DNA from: a virus
Lineage: Duplodnaviria > Heunggongvirae > Uroviricota > Caudoviricetes
DNA length: 5,421 bases
Reading direction: 5' to 3' (one strand)
Virus record (IMG/VR): IMGVR_UViG_3300029214_000137
Shown: positions 441 to 5,093 of the stretch, piece after piece
How the letters are laid out: each line of letters opens with the position of its first letter
How positions within the stretch are numbered: position 1 is the first letter of the stretch
Translations under genes and position numbers: made by a program
Notes under the pieces: generated by a model
The model's database searches: none
Seen by the model: only the letters and a program-made list of their open reading frames with translations
Told to the model about the DNA's origin: nothing

Positions 441-529
441 ACAAAACAGAGAAGAACACCTGCGGTGGCAGCCGCCCGGATGGATTGGGTTATGAGCTCG
501 TCGTCCGGTGATGCTCTTCTCTGTTTTGT
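441..529. repeat. 15-bp perfect inverted repeat (ACAAAACAGAGAAGA at 441-455 / TCTTCTCTGTTTTGT at 515-529) flanking a 59-bp GC-rich spacer
   Basis: Arms are exact reverse complements and cannot be extended at either end. The spacer itself has internal complementarity (CCGGA 476-480 / TCCGG 504-508; palindromic GAGCTC at 495-500). Function unknown. Confidence 0.6.
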
Positions 530-671: not shown

Positions 672-1013
672 ATGAACCAGTTTTATGTTCACGTTCGTCT
701 GTTTGAAGCAACAGCCGAACAGACCAAAAAATTTGAAGAATTAATGCTTAACTTTCTGTACCAGAAAACAATCAAAGAGTCTGACGATAGCTGCTGCAGA
801 CTGATTCCAGAGGGATATATCCTCAAAAGCACAATGAACTGCCAACAAATCCTTGATCAAACTTTTTCCATTGCTAACAGTGCTGGTGTTGACGCAAATA
901 TATTTGTCTGCAAATTTGAACAAAGCGCATGCTTACTTCCGTCTGCTTCCTTAGTTGGCAACGATTTTGTTCATCACGATCTTACGCCTAAGCCCATCAA
1001 GCTCGATTCTTAA
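672..1013 (+). CDS. Hypothetical protein (113 aa), rightward-oriented orphan gene embedded in the leftward early region
   Basis: ATG at 672 preceded by AAGGAA (661-666). In frame with the longer track ORF 636-1013, but the 636 ATG lies inside the putative -10. Enteric-typical codon usage, AT-rich (~40% GC by eye). Product MNQFYVHVRLFEATAEQTKKFEELMLNFLYQ... not recognised. Its last 63 bp overlap the convergent 951-1259 gene, which lowers confidence. Confidence 0.5.
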   Translation: MNQFYVHVRLFEATAEQTKKFEELMLNFLYQKTIKESDDSCCRLIPEGYILKSTMNCQQILDQTFSIANSAGVDANIFVCKFEQSACLLPSASLVGNDFVHHDLTPKPIKLDS

Positions 1014-1259
1014 TGCCTTAACCATTGTGTCGTGATAAACACGGCTCACCCTCTCTCCATTGCATGGCAGGGGGGTGATCGTGTTAGCCATGAAATTCAT
1101 GAACTTGGTTCGATCAGGGTCTTGCGCCCCGCAAGTCTTTAATGCCTGTTTTGCTAACAAAATACGGGCCTCAGTGCCTGCATTTGGCTCTATCTGCTGC
1201 AAACGTTTAGCGTCTTCCAGCAACAATGCGATCACATGCTTCAAATTCTGCTCATTCAT
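951..1259 (-). CDS. Hypothetical protein (102 aa), first gene of the PL-driven early-left operon (positional analogue of lambda N, not recognisable as N)
   Basis: Minus-strand ATG at 1259-1257 with a strong GGAGAG Shine-Dalgarno 5 nt upstream (complement of 1265-1270). Lies ~100 nt downstream of the PL-like promoter. Product MNEQNLKHVIALLLEDAKRLQQ... lacks the arginine-rich N-terminal motif of lambda N. Confidence 0.6.
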   Translation of the reverse strand: MNEQNLKHVIALLLEDAKRLQQIEPNAGTEARILLAKQALKTCGAQDPDRTKFMNFMANTITPLPCNGERVSRVYHDTMVKALRIELDGLRRKIVMNKIVAN

Positions 1260-1356
1260 CTATTCTCTCCACTGAAATCATCCGCTAACGAATCATCCCG
1301 GTCTTCGTACGTACCAGGCGGGCTACTTCGTGGGCGTCCTGCCTGTTCGTTGTTTT

Positions 1357-1412
1357 AACACCTTTAAGTTGTAATTTAGTTGTGGTTTTGAATGTTGTCA
1401 ACAACTTTATGT
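1357..1412 (-). promoter_or_regulatory. OL/PL-like region: leftward promoter with consensus -35 embedded in repressor operator repeats
   Basis: On the minus strand: -35 TTGACA (plus coords 1396-1401), 17-bp spacer, -10 TAAATT (plus coords 1373-1378). Operator-like heptamer ACAACTT/AAGTTGT at 1366-1372 and 1401-1407, plus variant ATGTTGT at 1392-1398, forming the inverted repeat ATGTTGT-ca-ACAACTT over the -35. The 12-mer ACAACTTTATGT (1401-1412) is identical to 3054-3065 in OR; the 16-mer AACACCTTTAAGTTGT (1357-1372) matches OR 3077-3092 at 14/16. Confidence 0.6.
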
Positions 1413-1464
1413 GGTTTGAACGAGTGGCCAAGGAGTGCAAGGATTATCAAAAAAAGGAGGTTGT

Positions 1465-2355
1465 ATGGAAGACGCGCTTTACGCTTTTAATTACACACAG
1501 AACCGGGACAAGTTATTTGCTAACTTGATTAGCATCATTGATGGAATCATTGCAGATGGAGTTGTCCGTGAAGAGGAGGTTCTTTACTTAGATACATGGT
1601 TACTTGAAGCAAAGCAGATTATCAATAATGGAGTTATAAAAAGTCTATCTGCACGGGTGTCGGATATTCTTGCGGATGGAATAATCACATCAGAAGAACG
1701 TGATGACCTTAAAAATAGCCTTCTCCAAATACAGAGGGAAATTCTTGATATCCCTGAAATTGATTTTTACTCCAAGGATGTAGATGTCCATTTACTTAAT
1801 GGACTATGTAAAGGATTAATTGCTGATCGGAACTTAACTCAAGAAGAAATAAGATATCTTAATTGGTGGCTTGAGCAAAATGGAGCTTTGAAGAACAACT
1901 ACCCAGGAAAAAAACTTTATGCACTTGTAAAGGAAATTCTTAAAGATGGTGTTATTACTGAAGATGAGAGTTTAACTCTACATAAGGCATTAGTAGACTT
2001 CACAGGATGTGACTTGGAAAGTGGGGTGGTGGATGGTTTGGCGACCAGGCTGCCTATTGATGTAGAGGCTTCGATAGAGTTAGAGGGTAAAACCTATTGT
2101 CTTACAGGCACTTTTGTTGCAGGAAAGAGAGCCGTAGTTGAAAATTTGATTAAAAATGCTGGTGGGAACATCAGTAGTGGAATTACTCAACAGTTGGATT
2201 TTTTAGTAATTGGGACGCTTTCCTCCCGTGATTGGAAATTCTCTAGTCACGGAAGGAAGATCGAAAAGGCTATATCTTATAGAGATGATAATGGTGCAAA
2301 ACTTAAAATTATTTCTGAAGAAATGCTTTTCGATGCATTACCAAGTTCGCGATGA
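1465..2355 (+). CDS. TerB-like repeat / BRCT-domain protein (296 aa); candidate prophage cargo (exclusion/defence) gene at the rex-equivalent site
   Basis: ATG at 1465 with AAGGAGG (1454-1460) 4 nt upstream; the track's longer ORF starts at a GTG at 1435 with no RBS. N-terminal two-thirds hold four ~22-aa repeats with the motif [IL]-A-D-G-x-[IV]-x-x-E-E (IADGVVREEEVLYL, LADGIITSEERDDL, IADRNLTQEEIRYL, LKDGVITEDESLTL), as in TerB/DjlA-N helical hairpins. The C-terminal ~85 aa (GKTYCLTGTF...QLDFLVIGT...KLKIISEEMLFDAL) follow the BRCT pattern of the LigA C-terminus (GKT-x-V-LTG ... D-x-L-V-x-G ... K-A). ~38% GC in a sampled 60-nt stretch versus ~58% in the Dam gene. Confidence 0.8.
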   Translation: MEDALYAFNYTQNRDKLFANLISIIDGIIADGVVREEEVLYLDTWLLEAKQIINNGVIKSLSARVSDILADGIITSEERDDLKNSLLQIQREILDIPEIDFYSKDVDVHLLNGLCKGLIADRNLTQEEIRYLNWWLEQNGALKNNYPGKKLYALVKEILKDGVITEDESLTLHKALVDFTGCDLESGVVDGLATRLPIDVEASIELEGKTYCLTGTFVAGKRAVVENLIKNAGGNISSGITQQLDFLVIGTLSSRDWKFSSHGRKIEKAISYRDDNGAKLKIISEEMLFDALPSSR

Positions 2356-3024
2356 CCAGAATACCCTACCTATAACATGAATTCTGGCTCGTCTATCTTC
2401 AAAGGTAAGTATTTCATCTGGGTACTCATCTTTGTTGAAGCTTCTAAGAATCAAGCCACCGTCAGGTAAGTTGATAAGTATTTTAACCCTTAGCAATACA
2501 CCATCTCGTACGGCATAAAGATCGCCATCACGAATAGGAACGGTTTGAGAAATATCAACGGCAACAAGATCTCCATTATTGAGAACCGGTAATAAACTGT
2601 TCCCCCATATTTTTACGATCTTGGCATTAGATGCACATACGCCAGATTTTCTCAAATCTGCTCTTCTTAACGGAAACCAGTCAATAGCTGATTCAACTAT
2701 TTCAGCCAGACATCCGTTACCTGCCGATAACTCGACATCTAAAACAGGAATGTTTACGAAAATATCGGGGTCTAATGCGGTGCTTTCTGCTTCTTTTACA
2801 ACAAGATCAGGTATGGATGCGTTGTCTTCAATACCAAGTTGTAACCACTTTTGTGATACACCTAAAACTTTTGCAATTTCTTTAATTTTGCGCGGTTGTA
2901 GAGTTTCGCCATTCTCTATTTTGGCTACAGATTGTTGTGAAAGTCCAATTTTTTCAGCTAGTTGAGCTTGGCTCATGCCAGCTTTCTCTCTACCTATCTT
3001 TAATCGTTCTGCCAGTGTTTTCAC
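2338..3024 (-). CDS. cI: Phage immunity repressor, cI-like (N-terminal XRE-type HTH + C-terminal S24 LexA-like autopeptidase domain), 228 aa
   Basis: GTG start at 3024-3022 with AGAGGGA 6 nt upstream on the minus strand. N-terminus MKTLAERLKIGREKAGMSQAQLAEKIGLSQQSVAKIENGET is a classic HTH_XRE. C-terminal half has an Ala-Gly cleavage site (ELSAGNG), a Ser in G-N-S-L and a Lys in LLRVKIL, consistent with the S24 Ser/Lys dyad, and ends ...IGRVFWSSRTW as in P22 C2/lambda cI-type repressors. Flanked by operator clusters on both sides. Confidence 0.9.
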   Translation of the reverse strand: MKTLAERLKIGREKAGMSQAQLAEKIGLSQQSVAKIENGETLQPRKIKEIAKVLGVSQKWLQLGIEDNASIPDLVVKEAESTALDPDIFVNIPVLDVELSAGNGCLAEIVESAIDWFPLRRADLRKSGVCASNAKIVKIWGNSLLPVLNNGDLVAVDISQTVPIRDGDLYAVRDGVLLRVKILINLPDGGLILRSFNKDEYPDEILTFEDRRARIHVIGRVFWSSRTW

Positions 3025-3049
3025 AACATATCCCTCTCTTTTTTGATGA

Positions 3050-3140
3050 GGTTACAACTTTATGTTTTAGCTTTCCAACACCTAAAAGTTGTGATAAAAG
3101 TTGTTAATGTTGTATTCTTGCAACTCGTAACAACTTAACT
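3050..3140. promoter_or_regulatory. OR-like operator cluster with divergent PR (to cro) and PRM (to cI) promoters; exact promoter hexamers not resolved
   Basis: Heptamer ACAACTT/AAGTTGT occurs four times in ~85 bp (3054-3060, 3086-3092, 3098-3104, 3130-3136), plus variant ATGTTGT at 3107-3113. Shares the 12-mer ACAACTTTATGT and the 16-mer AACACCTAAAAGTTGT with OL. Lies between divergent repressor and cro starts (3024 and 3160). No strong -10/-35 pair could be picked by eye. Confidence 0.65.
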
Positions 3141-3159
3141 ACCAAAAAAGGAGAAAGCT

Positions 3160-3408
3160 ATGACACCTGAGCAATTAGCCTTATCGGAGGCAATCGCTCT
3201 GGCTGGTGGTCAATCAGAATTGGCTCGGAAGCTCACAGCCAGCAGCGGTCATTTAGTAAAGCAACAACATGTCTGGAACTGGTTGAACAGAGAAAAGCGT
3301 CCCCCTGCAAAGCTCTCGATATTCATTGAAAAGACCACTGGCATATCAAAAGAAAAATTACGTCCAGATATTTTTCAAAAGATTAAAGATTCATCAGATG
3401 AAAAGTAA
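3160..3408 (+). CDS. cro: Cro-like small HTH regulator (YdaS/Cro family), 82 aa
   Basis: ATG at 3160 with AAAGGAG (3147-3153). Divergent from the repressor across the operator cluster. Product MTPEQLALSEAIALAGGQSELARKL...WNWLNREKRPPAKLSIFIEKTTGISKEKLRPDIF has the YdaS/Cro-type HTH pattern (TG-x-S-x-E-x-LRPD). Confidence 0.85.
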   Translation: MTPEQLALSEAIALAGGQSELARKLTASSGHLVKQQHVWNWLNREKRPPAKLSIFIEKTTGISKEKLRPDIFQKIKDSSDEK

Positions 3409-3430
3409 CCACAGTTTTAAGGAGATAGCC

Positions 3431-3988
3431 GTGGGTAAGCATCACTGGAAAGTAGAAAAACAGCCTAAGTGGTACGTGAAAGCTGTCAGAAAAACTATCG
3501 CAGCGTTGCCGGGGGGTTACGCTGAAGCAGCTGACTGGCTGGATGTAACAGAGAACGCATTATTTAACCGCCTTCGTGCCGATGGCGATCAAATTTTCCC
3601 GCTGGGATGGGCGATGATTTTACAACGTGCTGGTGGCACTCACTTCATTGCTGACGCTGTGGCGCAGTCTGCAAATGGCGTCTTTGTGTCTCTTCCTGAC
3701 GTCGAGGATGTGGATAACGCCGATATTAACCAGCGCCTGCTGGAAGTCATTGAACAGATTGGCAGTTATTCCAAACAGATTCGTTCGGCAATCGAAGACG
3801 GTGTGGTGGAACCGCATGAGAAGACAGCAATTAACGACGAGCTGTATCTCTCAATTTCGAAGCTGCAGGAGCATGCAGCACTTGTCTACAAAATTTTTTG
3901 CATTTCAGAAAGTAATGACGCCCGCGAGTGTGCAGCTCCGGGCGTCGTGGCGTCGATTGCTTCTGGTTGTGGAGAAACTAACGCATGA
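3431..3988 (+). CDS. CII-like / YdaT-family regulatory protein (186 aa)
   Basis: GTG at 3431 with AAGGAG (3419-3424) 6 nt upstream, 22 bp after the cro stop; the track's longer ORF (from 3326) would overlap cro. Position immediately after cro and size fit the CII(CP76)/YdaT family of lambdoid prophages. Family assignment is by position and recalled pattern, not searched. Confidence 0.7.
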   Translation: MGKHHWKVEKQPKWYVKAVRKTIAALPGGYAEAADWLDVTENALFNRLRADGDQIFPLGWAMILQRAGGTHFIADAVAQSANGVFVSLPDVEDVDNADINQRLLEVIEQIGSYSKQIRSAIEDGVVEPHEKTAINDELYLSISKLQEHAALVYKIFCISESNDARECAAPGVVASIASGCGETNA

Positions 3989-4116
3989 ACAGTTTAACAA
4001 CACACTACCGTCGCTCGCAACTGATTGCGCTTCCTGGAGCGGTGCTTACGGAAAAGCAGCAAGTGCGCTGTATCGGGTGATGAGTGGTATCTGTCAGGGA
4101 ATTACGTGGGGGCTTA

Positions 4117-4770
4117 ATGAGTAATAAATATTGGCAGGCGCTGGTGGAACTGCGGAACAAACCAGCCCATGAACTGAAGGAAGTGGGCGATCAGTGGCGC
4201 ACGCCGGACAACATTTTCTGGGGAATTAACACCCTGTTTGGCCCGTTTGTTCTGGATCTGTTCACTGACGGTGATAACGCCAAATGTGCCGCGTATTACA
4301 CGGCGGAAGACAACGCGCTGGCGCATGACTGGTCAGAACGTCTTGCGGAGCTTAAAGGTGCTGCCTTTGGTAATCCCCCATACAGCCGCGCCAGTCAGCA
4401 TGAGGGGCAATACATCACCGGCATGCGTTACATCATGAAGCATGCCAGTGCCATGCGTGATAAAGGCGGGCGCTATGTTTTCCTGATCAAAGCGGCCACC
4501 AGCGAAGTGTGGTGGCCGGAAGATGCAGATCATATTGCTTTTATTCGCGGGCGTATTGGTTTTGAACTACCTGCCTGGTTTATACCGAAGGACGAGAAGC
4601 AGGTGCCGACAGGTGCTTTCTTCGCTGGTGCCATTGCTGTTTTCGACAAGACCTGGAAGGGATCGGCAATCAGCTACATCGGGCGCGATGAACTTGAGGC
4701 ATGTGGTGAGGCCTTTCTGGCGCAGGTTCGCCAGCAGGCGGAAAAACTGGTCAGGGAGATGGCGGCATGA
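4117..4770 (+). CDS. Phage Dam-type DNA N6-adenine methyltransferase (217 aa)
   Basis: ATG at 4117 preceded by GGGGG (4108-4112); the track ORF begins at an in-frame GTG at 4084. Product has the catalytic NPPY motif (AAFGNPPYSRA) and an N-terminal W-R-T-P-D-x-x-F ... Y-Y-T-A-E-D-N-A-L layout typical of phage Dam (Pfam Dam-like) enzymes of lambdoid nin regions. ~58% GC in a sampled stretch. Confidence 0.85.
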   Translation: MSNKYWQALVELRNKPAHELKEVGDQWRTPDNIFWGINTLFGPFVLDLFTDGDNAKCAAYYTAEDNALAHDWSERLAELKGAAFGNPPYSRASQHEGQYITGMRYIMKHASAMRDKGGRYVFLIKAATSEVWWPEDADHIAFIRGRIGFELPAWFIPKDEKQVPTGAFFAGAIAVFDKTWKGSAISYIGRDELEACGEAFLAQVRQQAEKLVREMAA

Positions 4771-5093
4771 CGACATTAACTCAATGCCAGCAGCAGGTGC
4801 TGGATATGCTGATTTCTTACCAGCAAGAACGTGGCTTTCCGCCAACCAATCAGGAGGTGGCAACCATGCTGGGATACCGTTCGGTGAATGCAGCGGTGGA
4901 GCATCTTCGCGCACTGGAGAAAAAAGGCGTCATCACGATAAAGCGTGGCGTGGCCCGGGGGATAACTCTTCATACCGCGGTGAAGGACGACGACAGCGAG
5001 GCGGTCGGGATTATCCGCGCACTGCTTGCCGGTGAGGAAAACGGCAGGCTGCGTGCAGCCCACTGGTTACATGAGAGGGGCCTGAAAGTATGA
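4767..5093 (+). CDS. LexA N-terminal DNA-binding-domain protein without peptidase domain (108 aa)
   Basis: ATG at 4767 overlaps the Dam stop (ATGA at 4767-4770). Product MTTLTQCQQQVLDMLISYQQERGFPPTNQEVATMLGYRSVNAAVEHLRALEKKGVITIKRGVARGITL parallels the LexA winged-helix domain (LexA: ...LTARQQEVFDLI...[46 protein letters not shown]). No Ala-Gly site or S24 domain follows. Confidence 0.7.
   Translation: MTTLTQCQQQVLDMLISYQQERGFPPTNQEVATMLGYRSVNAAVEHLRALEKKGVITIKRGVARGITLHTAVKDDDSEAVGIIRALLAGEENGRLRAAHWLHERGLKV

What the first reader, a model, noticed from the sequence alone, without database searches (positions are those of the whole stretch)
1357..3136. Shared operator vocabulary in OL and OR: exact 12-mer, 14/16 16-mer and heptamer half-sites; PL -35 buried in an operator
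ACAACTTTATGT occurs identically at 1401-1412 and 3054-3065. AACACCTTTAAGTTGT (1357-1372) and AACACCTAAAAGTTGT (3077-3092) differ at 2 of 16 positions. The heptamer ACAACTT/AAGTTGT appears twice near PL and four times between the repressor and cro. The PL -35 (TTGACA on the minus strand, 1396-1401) sits inside the inverted repeat ATGTTGT-ca-ACAACTT. This is the expected layout for a lambda-like bistable switch and gives a testable operator definition for an otherwise uncharacterised repressor.
Basis: seen in the sequence. Interest (0 to 1): 0.5.

Follow-up and report, generated by a model that had tools for sequence, protein, structure and literature searches.

The report
Operator sites of an e14-like prophage switch
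The repeated words are real and are almost certainly the binding sites (a 15-bp two-fold symmetric sequence, ACAAC-N5-GTTGT) of a phage-434-like repressor that controls the lysis/lysogeny switch of an uncharacterised E. coli prophage: an ordinary kind of switch with a few unusual details.

Summary
The 12-mer and the 16-mer are two versions of one 15-bp dyad, ACAAC-N5(A/T)-GTTGT. At one mismatch or fewer it occurs four times in the window (expected 0.17): 1358-1372 and 1401-1415 at OL, 3054-3068 and 3078-3092 at OR. It occurs nowhere else in 26 kb of a near-identical prophage.

The window is an e14-family prophage integrated next to icd. Its immunity cassette (1356-3429) replaces that of K-12 e14, and the left junction lies 2 bp from the first operator. 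About 100 related loci (58-100% repressor identity) keep the pentamer arms invariant while the N5 centres and flanks drift.

The repressor's DNA-binding domain is homologous to the 434 repressor, with the Gln-Gln-Ser recognition helix retained. 434 operators are ACAA-N6-TTGT.

PL, PRM and PR can be placed with lambda-like geometry.

- The PL -35 abuts an operator by 1 bp and is not buried in it.
- The inverted repeat around the -35 is not conserved.
- Each control region has only two full dyads, plus conserved lone half-sites that remain unexplained.

This is a new member of a known kind, of modest interest.

The parts
1356..3429 (.). Exchangeable immunity cassette (OL, BRCT-domain gene, repressor, OR, cro).
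   Evidence: The window is 96% identical to K-12 e14 at 603-1355 and at 3430-4042, with no homology between those blocks. K-12 e14 carries a different repressor (YmfK) and GGTACA-type repeats at the same place.
1358..1372 (.). Operator OL-a, ACACC-TTTAA-GTTGT. It covers about -6 to +9 of PL.
   Evidence: It matches the dyad with 1 mismatch. The arms are conserved in relatives, and the mismatch sits on the left arm in some lineages and on the right arm in others.
1373..1378 (-). PL -10 hexamer, TAAATT.
   Evidence: Promoter scan scores 10 of 12. Relatives keep TA[A/G]ATT or TAATAT at this position.
1379..1383 (.). Lone half-site GTTGT inside the PL spacer, 11 bp from the consensus arm of OL-a.
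   Evidence: It is kept in almost all of the 64 distinct OL sequences and has no partner arm.
1396..1401 (-). PL -35 hexamer, TTGACA.
   Evidence: Found by the promoter scan. GTCAA at 1397-1401 is invariant in 19 representatives.
1401..1415 (.). Operator OL-b, ACAAC-TTTAT-GTGGT. It lies between the -35 of PL and the -35 of a putative promoter for the BRCT-domain gene.
   Evidence: It matches the dyad with 1 mismatch. Positions 1397-1412 and 1414-1419 are invariant. The Proteus and Providencia relatives have the perfect palindrome ACAACATAAAGTTGT here.
1416..1444 (+). Putative promoter of the BRCT-domain gene: TTGAAC (1416-1421), 17-bp spacer, TGcAAGGAT (1436-1444).
   Evidence: Both blocks are conserved in relatives while the spacer between them varies. 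This is an inference; no transcription start data exist.
1465..2355 (+). BRCT-domain gene, convergent with the repressor gene.
   Evidence: Pfam BRCT match at residues 206-290. Full-length match to phrog_3989, function unknown. It sits next to the repressor in nearly all related loci.
2338..3024 (-). CI-like repressor: 434-type helix-turn-helix domain plus an S24 self-cleaving domain.
   Evidence: Pfam HTH_3 and Peptidase_S24 matches. Match to the 434 repressor DNA-binding domain with E 4e-13 and no gaps.
3049..3054 (-). PRM -10 hexamer, TAACCT.
   Evidence: The position is always TAnnnT in relatives: TAATCT, TAGTCT, TAAAAT. This is an inference.
3054..3068 (.). Operator OR-a, ACAAC-TTTAT-GTTTT. 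It lies in the PRM spacer, in the position lambda OR3 occupies.
   Evidence: It matches the dyad with 1 mismatch. Positions 3053-3062 and 3064-3068 are invariant.
3073..3078 (-). PRM -35 hexamer, TTGGAA.
   Evidence: It lies within the invariant run 3071-3080. It is 18 bp from the -10. This is an inference.
3078..3092 (.). Operator OR-b, ACACC-TAAAA-GTTGT. It lies between the -35 of PRM and the -35 of PR, in the position lambda OR2 occupies.
   Evidence: It matches the dyad with 1 mismatch. The arms are fixed while the N5 centre varies among relatives: TAAAA, AAAAA, TATAA, TTAAA, TAAAG, TTTAT.
3089..3094 (+). PR -35 hexamer, TTGTGA. It overlaps OR-b by 4 bp.
   Evidence: It is placed 18 bp upstream of the -10. 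This is an inference.
3098..3104 (.). Lone half-site AAGTTGT, 12 bp from the consensus arm of OR-b.
   Evidence: Positions 3096-3104 are invariant in 18 representatives and have no partner arm.
3109..3113 (.). Lone half-site GTTGT, abutting the PR -10.
   Evidence: Positions 3109-3114 are invariant, while the 4 bp that separate it from the previous half-site vary.
3113..3118 (+). PR -10 hexamer, TATTCT.
   Evidence: Most relatives have the consensus TATAAT at this column.
3130..3136 (.). Lone half-site ACAACTT at about +5 to +12 of PR, a fixed 16 bp from the half-site at 3109-3113.
   Evidence: It is an invariant island in a leader that is only 32-62% identical in relatives with 58-93% repressor identity. 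Its distance to the PR -10 is constant, while its distance to the cro ribosome-binding site varies.
3160..3408 (+). Cro-like gene.
   Evidence: Pfam YdaS_toxin match. Match to phrog_35. Weak match to the Xylella prophage Cro structure 3bd1.

Best explanation
The repeats are the operators of the immunity switch of an e14-family lambdoid prophage. This prophage carries a repressor/cro cassette different from the one in K-12 e14.

Proposed mechanism:
- A dimer of the repressor binds 15-bp dyads, ACAAC-N5-GTTGT. The repressor has a 434-type helix-turn-helix domain with a Gln-Gln-Ser-x-x-Lys recognition helix, plus an S24 autocleavage domain.
- The two 5-bp arms are read directly. The A/T-rich centre is not read base by base.
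- At OL, the site at 1358-1372 covers the -10/+1 edge of PL and blocks it. The site at 1401-1415 abuts the -35.
- At OR, the site at 3078-3092 overlaps the PR -35 by 4 bp. It is centred about 43 bp upstream of the inferred PRM start, the position from which lambda and 434 repressors activate PRM.
- The site at 3054-3068 lies in the PRM spacer. That is the position for negative autoregulation by the repressor, or for shut-off of PRM by Cro.
- Every natural site keeps one consensus arm and one imperfect arm, which suggests tuned affinities.

Shown here: the existence, enrichment, conservation and positions of the sites; the homology of the DNA-binding domain.
Inferred: the transcription start points, which protein occupies which site, and activation of PRM.
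For: Statistics:
- The dyad at 1 mismatch or fewer has 4 hits, all at OL or OR, against 0.17 expected; 0 of 200 shuffles reach 4.
- The same four sites are the only hits in 26 kb of a near-identical prophage.

Context:
- The repressor and cro genes are divergent, and the early-left operon leads to xis and int.
- The cassette boundary at 1355/1356 lies 2 bp from OL-a.

Phylogenetic footprint:
- The OR core 3049-3118 is 82-94% identical at the nucleotide level in relatives whose cI genes are 61-87% identical and whose leaders are 32-80% identical.
- The invariant runs coincide with the pentamer arms.
- The N5 centres vary while the arms stay fixed. At OL-a the single mismatch sits on either arm in different lineages. 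The outgroup carries a perfect palindrome.

Protein:
- The match to the 434 repressor DNA-binding domain has E 4e-13, is gapless, and keeps the residues equivalent to Q28, Q29, S30 and R43.
- 434 operators have 5+5 contacted outer bases around a non-contacted centre (PMC1636474).
- The next-closest repressors (41-45% identity) have the helix S-Q-P-A-I-Q-K and use ATAAC-N4-GTTAT dyads, three of them 24-25 bp apart. Half-site position 2 thus changes together with the second Gln.
Against: - There are no binding or transcription data of any kind.
- Only two full dyads occur per region, so PR has no dyad over its -10.
- Three invariant lone half-sites at OR and one at OL are not explained by a dimer-on-dyad model.
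- Cro also carries a K-Q-Q recognition helix (sequence). Sequence alone therefore cannot assign any site to the repressor rather than to Cro.
- The 15-bp spacing differs from the 14 bp of 434 and of the closest relatives, so the 434 complex is only an approximate template.
- The ACAAC/GTTGT pentamer alone is fairly common: 28 copies in the window.
Confidence: 0.8

Rival explanations
1. The functional unit is the single half-site ACAACTT(T), not the 15-bp dyad. Repressor or Cro subunits would then bind arrays of half-sites in direct, inverted and everted arrangements and be held together by protein-protein contacts. Under this reading the four dyads are just the subset of half-sites that happen to face each other.
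For: - Four conserved half-sites have no partner arm: 1379-1383, 3098-3104, 3109-3113 and 3130-3136.
- They lie at roughly helical-repeat distances from neighbouring half-sites: 11, 12 and 9 bp. The everted pair at 3109/3130 is 21 bp centre to centre, and 9-10 bp in the Proteus and Providencia relatives.
- The half-site at 3130-3136 is an isolated invariant island.
Against: - The imperfect arms of all four dyads stay within one mismatch of the consensus in almost all of 53-64 distinct sequences.
- The mismatch at OL-a flips between the two arms.
- The outgroup has a perfect palindrome.
These three points are hard to explain unless both arms are read. In addition, 434-type domains are known to bind as symmetric dimers (PMC1636474).
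Confidence: 0.15
2. The repeats, or at least the lone half-sites and the exact 12-mer, are mainly sites for Cro or for another phage regulator rather than for the repressor.
For: - The Cro recognition helix (V-K-Q-Q-H-V-W-N-W) begins with the same Lys-Gln-Gln as 434 Cro. The Cro sequence is; the 434 Cro sequence is from my own knowledge.
- Cro is conserved together with the repressor in all relatives, so the conservation pattern cannot separate the two proteins.
- The 12-mer-type sites (OR-a, OL-b) form a distinct class with the centre TTTAT.
Against: In all characterised lambdoid switches Cro and the repressor share the same operators, so this reading complements the main explanation rather than replacing it. 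The repressor's homology to 434 predicts ACA-initiated half-sites independently.
Confidence: 0.1
3. The similarity between OL and OR is chance, shared AT-rich promoter composition, or a recent duplication with no binding function.
For: Both regions are AT-rich, and the pentamer occurs 28 times in the window.
Against: - The dyad count is 4 against 0.17 expected.
- The shared 12-mer has P of about 0.006.
- The arms are invariant across relatives down to 58% repressor identity while flanks and centres diverge.
Confidence: 0.02

Closest known systems
Phage 434 immunity region (434 repressor and Cro with the 14-bp operators ACAA-N6-TTGT at OR1-3 and OL1-3)
   Same: - The repressor's DNA-binding domain is homologous (E 4e-13, gapless) and keeps the Gln-Gln-Ser start of the recognition helix and the Arg equivalent to R43.
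- Half-sites begin with ACAA.
- Five contacted outer bases lie on each side of a centre that is not conserved (PMC1636474).
- Cro also begins its recognition helix with Lys-Gln-Gln.
   Different: - The centre is 5 bp rather than 4, giving 15 bp in total rather than 14.
- The fifth base (C) is invariant here.
- Gln33 of 434 is replaced by Lys.
- There are two full sites per region instead of three, plus conserved lone half-sites.
- Overall repressor identity to any sequenced phage is 45% or less.
Phage lambda OR/OL (PRM, PR and PL with OR1-3 and OL1-3)
   Same: - cI and cro are divergent.
- The repressor has an S24 self-cleaving domain.
- One operator sits between the two back-to-back -35 hexamers, about 43 bp upstream of the inferred PRM start.
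- A second operator lies 24 bp away in the PRM spacer.
- The same operator word is used at PL.
   Different: - There is no dyad over the PR -10, the position of lambda OR1.
- PL is covered at its +1 edge rather than over its spacer.
- The repressor mRNA has a leader and a Shine-Dalgarno sequence.
- A convergent BRCT-domain gene sits between cI and OL, with its own putative promoter abutting an operator.
K-12 cryptic prophage e14 (YmfK/CohE repressor and YmfT/CroE)
   Same: Same prophage family and, in the near-identical prophage L001, insertion next to icd. The flanks are 96% identical (ymfI, ymfJ, the PL leader, ymfL). A TTGACA PL -35 flanked by repeats occupies the same place.
   Different: The whole cassette 1356-3429 is replaced. 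K-12 has a different repressor, no BRCT-domain gene, and GGTACA/TGTACC-type repeats instead of ACAAC/GTTGT.
CI-like repressors of Stx1-converting phages (for example SH2026Stx1) and Salmonella phage S.Kent 1-2-1
   Same: These are the closest repressors in sequenced phages (41-45% identity). Their half-site ATAAC differs from ACAAC only at position 2.
   Different: Their recognition helix is S-Q-P-A-I-Q-K rather than S-Q-Q-S-V-A-K. Their dyads are 14 bp (ATAAC-N4-GTTAT), with three regularly spaced sites at OR.

Membership tests
Lambdoid immunity region (CI/Cro bistable switch) | Divergently transcribed repressor (helix-turn-helix plus S24 domain) and cro genes separated by a short control region. 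| tested here: met
   The repressor is at 2338-3024 (-) and cro at 3160-3408 (+), 135 bp apart. Pfam HTH_3 plus Peptidase_S24 for the repressor, YdaS-type helix-turn-helix for cro.
Lambdoid immunity region (CI/Cro bistable switch) | The same operator sequence recurs at OR and at a distant OL that controls an early-left promoter. | tested here: met
   Four dyads at 1 mismatch or fewer, two at each region and none elsewhere. PL scores 10 of 12.
Lambdoid immunity region (CI/Cro bistable switch) | Three adjacent full operators in each control region. | tested here: not met
   Only two full dyads occur per region, even at 2 mismatches. The third position at OR holds lone half-sites.
Lambdoid immunity region (CI/Cro bistable switch) | Repressor with an SOS-cleavable S24 domain: an Ala-Gly cleavage site and a Ser/Lys catalytic dyad. 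| tested here: met
   By sequence only. Residues 101-102 are Ala-Gly. Ser143 (in G-N-S-L) and Lys181 are invariant in 5 relatives. Cleavage itself was not tested.
Lambdoid immunity region (CI/Cro bistable switch) | Repressor and Cro physically bind the operators, and the switch is bistable. | not testable with these tools
   This needs EMSA or footprinting, reporter fusions and induction assays.
434-type repressor/operator system | DNA-binding domain homologous to 434 repressor residues 1-69, with Gln-Gln at the start of the recognition helix. | tested here: met
   phmmer E 4e-13 with query residues 4-68 aligned to 434 residues 2-66 without gaps. Q30, Q31 and S32 align with Q28, Q29 and S30.
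434-type repressor/operator system | 14-bp operator ACAA-N6-TTGT, that is 5 contacted bases, 4 central bases, 5 contacted bases. | tested here: not met
   All sites in the window and in the relatives are 15 bp (5+5+5), ACAA-N7-TTGT. The 434 description is from PMC1636474.
e14 prophage family | Integration next to icd, with intE/xisE and the ymfI, ymfJ and ymfL genes. | tested here: met
   The near-identical locus L001 lies next to icd and carries intE, xisE, ymfI and ymfL. Flanks are 96% identical to K-12 e14.
e14 prophage family | e14 immunity specificity (YmfK repressor and its operators). | tested here: not met
   There is no homology across 1356-3429. K-12 has GGTACA-type repeats.

The most novel reading that the evidence does not exclude
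This 434-type repressor may work through a layout unlike that of lambda or 434.
- PR would be controlled not by a third dyad but by conserved single half-sites. These include an everted pair that brackets the -10 and +1 and keeps its helical phase across relatives: 21 bp centre to centre in most, 9-10 bp in the outgroup.
- The OL-b dyad would sit symmetrically between two divergent -35 hexamers. From there it could act as a PRM-like activator site for a conserved BRCT-domain gene expressed in the lysogen.
- The 1-bp longer operator centre would imply a dimer geometry different from that of 434.
Probability: 0.25. Interest if true: 0.5.

Novelty: new member of a known kind. Interest (0 to 1): 0.3.

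Why it matters
The result gives a precise, testable operator definition for an immunity type found in about 1% of complete E. coli genomes (48 of 5,426). Relatives occur in Serratia, Proteus and Providencia, and in an assembly labelled Pseudomonas lundensis.

It also adds a natural comparison for the classic 434 recognition problem. The recognition-helix start and the ACAA half-site are the same, but the non-contacted centre is one base pair longer and the site layout differs.

Practically, it defines the heteroimmunity boundary within the e14 family. It also points to a conserved BRCT-domain gene whose promoter abuts an operator.

None of this changes how lambdoid switches are understood.

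Tried and rejected
- Near-identity search of the immunity region against sequenced phages found only a 60-77-bp leader match and no characterised phage with this cassette.
- A protein search found no phage repressor above 45% identity.
- Literature searches for e14 operators, for BRCT plus CI repressor, and for 434 contact residues found nothing on this system.
- I first tried reading the 16-mer as AACAC-N6-GTTGT and the sites as a 7-1-7 heptamer palindrome. I dropped both for the 5-5-5 frame because only that frame fits all four sites and the perfect palindrome in the outgroup.
- Relaxing the dyad to 2 mismatches adds 5 hits, all at or inside coding sequence (one overlaps the ribosome-binding site of the BRCT-domain gene). 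That is close to the chance expectation, so no further operators were called.
- I looked for a third full dyad at the lambda OR1 position (centre near 3108) and found none.
- The strict promoter scan found PL only. PR and PRM were placed from conservation in relatives.
- An Rfam scan of the window found nothing relevant.
- The single-sequence fold of the PL leader is not significant.
- A covariance-model search for a second, PR-side copy of the leader RNA found none.
Full report
**Observation.**
- The heptamer ACAACTT/AAGTTGT occurs 8 times in 5.4 kb against 0.92 expected; none of 200 shuffles reaches 8. Six of the eight hits lie in the two control regions.
- An exact 12-mer shared by the two intergenic regions has P of about 0.006 under a first-order Markov null.
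- TTGACA at 1401..1396, a 17-bp spacer and TAAATT at 1378..1373 on the minus strand is the best promoter-like match in 1200-3250 (10 of 12).

**Context.** The gene order is as follows:

| Coordinates | Strand | Gene or feature |
|---|---|---|
| 672-1013 | + | ymfI |
| 951-1259 | - | ymfJ |
| about 1357-1464 | . | OL region (dyads and promoter elements at 1358-1444) |
| 1465-2355 | + | BRCT-domain gene |
| 2338-3024 | - | CI-like repressor (HTH_3 plus Peptidase_S24) |
| 3025-3159 | . | OR region, 135 bp |
| 3160-3408 | + | cro (YdaS-type) |
| 3431-3988 | + | ymfL (CII/CP76-like) |
| 4117-4770 | + | Dam methylase |
| 4767-5093 | + | protein with only a LexA DNA-binding domain |
| from 5090 | + | RusA |

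- The window is 99.4% identical to prophages in E. coli chromosomes. Among complete genomes, 48 of 5,426 carry most of the 1260-3420 block.
- In strain FHI_NMBU_10 the prophage lies next to icd and carries intE and xisE, so it belongs to the e14 family.
- Against K-12 e14 the window is 96% identical at 603-1355 and 3430-4042 and unrelated in between.
- The block 1356-3429 is therefore a swapped immunity cassette. Its left junction is 2 bp from the first repeat. K-12 has its own vocabulary (GGTACA/TGTACC repeats) at the equivalent places.
- This is the classic mosaic logic of heteroimmune lambdoid phages. It supports, independently of the statistics, the view that the repeats belong functionally with this repressor.

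**One operator, not three words.** The 12-mer, the 16-mer and the heptamer collapse into a 15-bp dyad, ACAAC-N5-GTTGT. With at most one mismatch the pattern has exactly four hits in the window, against 0.17 expected; 0 of 200 shuffles reach 4.

| Site | Coordinates | Sequence |
|---|---|---|
| OL-a | 1358-1372 | ACACC TTTAA GTTGT |
| OL-b | 1401-1415 | ACAAC TTTAT GTGGT |
| OR-a | 3054-3068 | ACAAC TTTAT GTTTT |
| OR-b | 3078-3092 | ACACC TAAAA GTTGT |

The same four are the only hits in 26 kb of the near-identical prophage. Allowing two mismatches adds five hits, all at or inside coding sequence (one overlaps the ribosome-binding site of the BRCT-domain gene), which is about the chance number.

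**Phylogenetic footprint.** Searches with the repressor recovered about 100 loci with 58-100% identity. The genome-derived ones come from Serratia, Proteus and Providencia, and from an assembly labelled Pseudomonas lundensis; the rest are viral and metagenomic contigs. Nearly all keep the cro, repressor and BRCT-gene trio.
- In 18 representatives the OR core 3049-3118 is 82-94% identical at the nucleotide level. The cI genes are 61-87% identical and the two leaders 32-80%.
- The invariant runs are TACAACTTTA (3053-3062), GTTTT (3064-3068), CTTTCCAACA (3071-3080), GTTGT (3088-3092), AAAAGTTGT (3096-3104), GTTGTA (3109-3114) and ACAACTT (3130-3136).
- At OL, positions 1397-1412 and 1414-1419 are invariant, and the arms of OL-a are conserved.
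- Across 53-64 distinct sequences the arms stay fixed while the N5 centre of OR-b varies: TAAAA, AAAAA, TATAA, TTAAA, TAAAG, TTTAT.
- OL-a always keeps a mismatch, on the left arm in some lineages (ACACC..GTTGT, 30 distinct sequences) and on the right arm in others (ACAAC..GGTGT, 23 distinct sequences).
- OL-b is the perfect palindrome ACAACATAAAGTTGT in the Proteus and Providencia outgroup.
- Conserved arms around a drifting centre, with a mismatch that can sit on either arm, is the signature of a two-fold symmetric protein site.

**The protein fits.**
- Residues 4-68 of the repressor align without gaps to the 434 repressor DNA-binding domain (E 4e-13).
- The recognition helix S-Q-Q-S-V-A-K aligns with T-Q-Q-S-I-E-Q of 434, and the Arg equivalent to R43 is kept. 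Q30, Q31 and K35 are invariant in five relatives.
- 434 operators are 14 bp. The outer 5+5 bases are contacted, the outer 4+4 (ACAA..TTGT) are conserved, and the four central bases are not contacted but tune affinity (PMC1636474).
- From the 434 co-crystal structures (my knowledge; not retrieved here), Gln28 reads A1 and Gln29 reads base pairs 2-3.
- In agreement with that, the next-closest repressors, from an Stx1 phage and Salmonella phage S.Kent 1-2-1 (41-45% identity), have S-Q-P-A-I-Q-K. They use ATAAC-N4-GTTAT dyads, three at OR spaced 24-25 bp. Half-site position 2 thus changes together with the second Gln.
- Cro here also starts its recognition helix with K-Q-Q, as 434 Cro does. It therefore probably reads the same half-sites. 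Sequence alone cannot say which protein prefers which site.

**Promoters and geometry (inferred).**
- PL: -35 at 1401..1396 and -10 at 1378..1373, giving a start near 1366.
- OL-a then spans about -6 to +9 and would block RNA polymerase directly.
- OL-b shares only base 1401 with the -35 and is centred near -42.
- PR: TTGTGA (3089-3094), 18-bp spacer, TATTCT (3113-3118). Most relatives have TATAAT at that column. OR-b overlaps this -35 by 4 bp.
- PRM: TTGGAA (3078..3073), 18-bp spacer, TAACCT (3054..3049). The -10 is always TAnnnT in relatives, and TAAAAT in the outgroup.
- With a PRM start near 3042, OR-b is centred near -43 and OR-a near -19. These are the positions of lambda OR2 (activation) and lambda OR3 (autorepression or Cro shut-off). 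OR-a and OR-b are 24 bp apart.

**What the model does not explain.**
- OR has no third dyad. Instead it has three invariant lone half-sites: 3098-3104, 3109-3113 and 3130-3136. OL has one at 1379-1383.
- The half-site at 3130-3136 is an invariant island in a variable leader. It stays a fixed 16 bp from the half-site at 3109-3113 (that is, 11 bp downstream of the PR -10), while its distance to the cro ribosome-binding site varies. Its position therefore appears tied to the promoter.
- In the outgroup the corresponding everted pair is 4-5 bp apart instead of 16. That is about one helical turn less, so the helical phase is kept.
- These half-sites may anchor extra dimers by cooperativity, or they may be preferred by Cro. 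I could not decide between these.
- ACAAC also overlaps the GTG start codon of the repressor (3022-3027) and is invariant there.

**A conserved putative promoter for the BRCT-domain gene.**
- It reads TTGAAC (1416-1421), 17-bp spacer, TGcAAGGAT (1436-1444), and it starts immediately after OL-b.
- OL-b therefore lies symmetrically between two divergent -35 hexamers, just as OR-b does.
- Repressor bound at OL-b could activate this gene in lysogens in the way PRM is activated. This is a hypothesis only.

**Verdict.** The claim that the -35 is buried in an operator is not supported: the -35 only abuts OL-b, and the flanking inverted repeat is not conserved. The system is a new member of a well-known kind. 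Its distinguishing details are a centre one base pair longer than in 434 and in its nearest relatives, two rather than three full sites per region, and conserved lone half-sites. Interest is modest (0.3).

**Side observation: a structured RNA in the PL leader.**
- It lies at 1282-1350 on the minus strand.
- Covariation supports a closing stem and a hairpin.
- It has no Rfam match.
- It is present once per prophage in e14, SfIV and ST64B, always just outside the immunity cassette.
- It may deserve its own follow-up.

Noticed in passing
window 1282-1350 (minus strand); also L002 6108-6176, L119 2499-2566, L120 2494-2561: A conserved structured RNA of about 65 nt starts about 16 nt into the PL transcript.
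- It is shared by heteroimmune phages, including K-12 e14, SfII, SfIV, ST64B and phiNP, and phages of Yersinia, Pantoea and Klebsiella. Where context was checked (e14, SfIV, ST64B) it lies just left of the repressor/OL module.
- On 26 distinct sequences, covariation supports a closing stem (AU/GC swap at pair 1:63) and a 5-bp hairpin with three covarying pairs.
- It has no Rfam match.
- A covariance model finds one copy per prophage and none on the PR side.
- Its function is unknown. Candidates are a cis-acting antitermination RNA or a leader element of the early-left operon.
   Followed up: partly
window 1465-2355 (+): A 296-aa protein has TerB-like helical repeats in its N-terminal part (judged by eye only; not tested) and a C-terminal BRCT domain. 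It matches phrog_3989 (function unknown) over its full length and weakly matches the PADLOC candidate PDC-S48. The gene is convergent with the repressor gene, and their 3' ends overlap by 18 bp. It is kept next to this repressor in nearly all relatives; one lineage with 93% repressor identity has an internal deletion. It may be a lysogen-expressed exclusion or defence gene.
   Followed up: partly
window 3022-3027: CACAAC, an ACAAC half-site overlapping the GTG start codon of the repressor, is invariant in 18 representatives. It could be a further half-site downstream of PRM, or simply the context of the start codon.
   Followed up: no
window 2836-2846 and 298-304: There are two extra exact heptamers. 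The one inside the repressor gene extends to AAGTTGTAACC, which is the reverse complement of 3050-3060 at OR-a/PRM. The other lies a few bases inside the start of the HD-domain gene. Both may be chance.
   Followed up: no
window 441-465 and 505-529: A 25-nt inverted repeat (84% complementary, 39 nt between the arms) lies in the non-coding stretch between the HD-domain gene and ymfI. This stretch is 81% identical to K-12 e14. It could be a structured RNA or a terminator.
   Followed up: no
window 672-1013 (+) and 951-1259 (-): ymfI and ymfJ are convergent, and their 3' ends overlap by 63 bp, as in K-12 e14. Neither has a Pfam family.
   Followed up: no
window 4767-5093 (+): A 108-aa protein consists of a LexA DNA-binding domain with no peptidase domain. 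It lies between the Dam methylase gene and rusA. It might compete for LexA boxes or act as a phage regulator.
   Followed up: no
L117 and L118, about 1700-1790: Stx1-converting phage SH2026Stx1 and Salmonella phage S.Kent 1-2-1 have three ATAAC-N4-GTTAT dyads, 24-25 bp apart, upstream of their CI-like repressor genes. This is a clean three-part OR for a related repressor whose recognition helix differs.
   Followed up: partly
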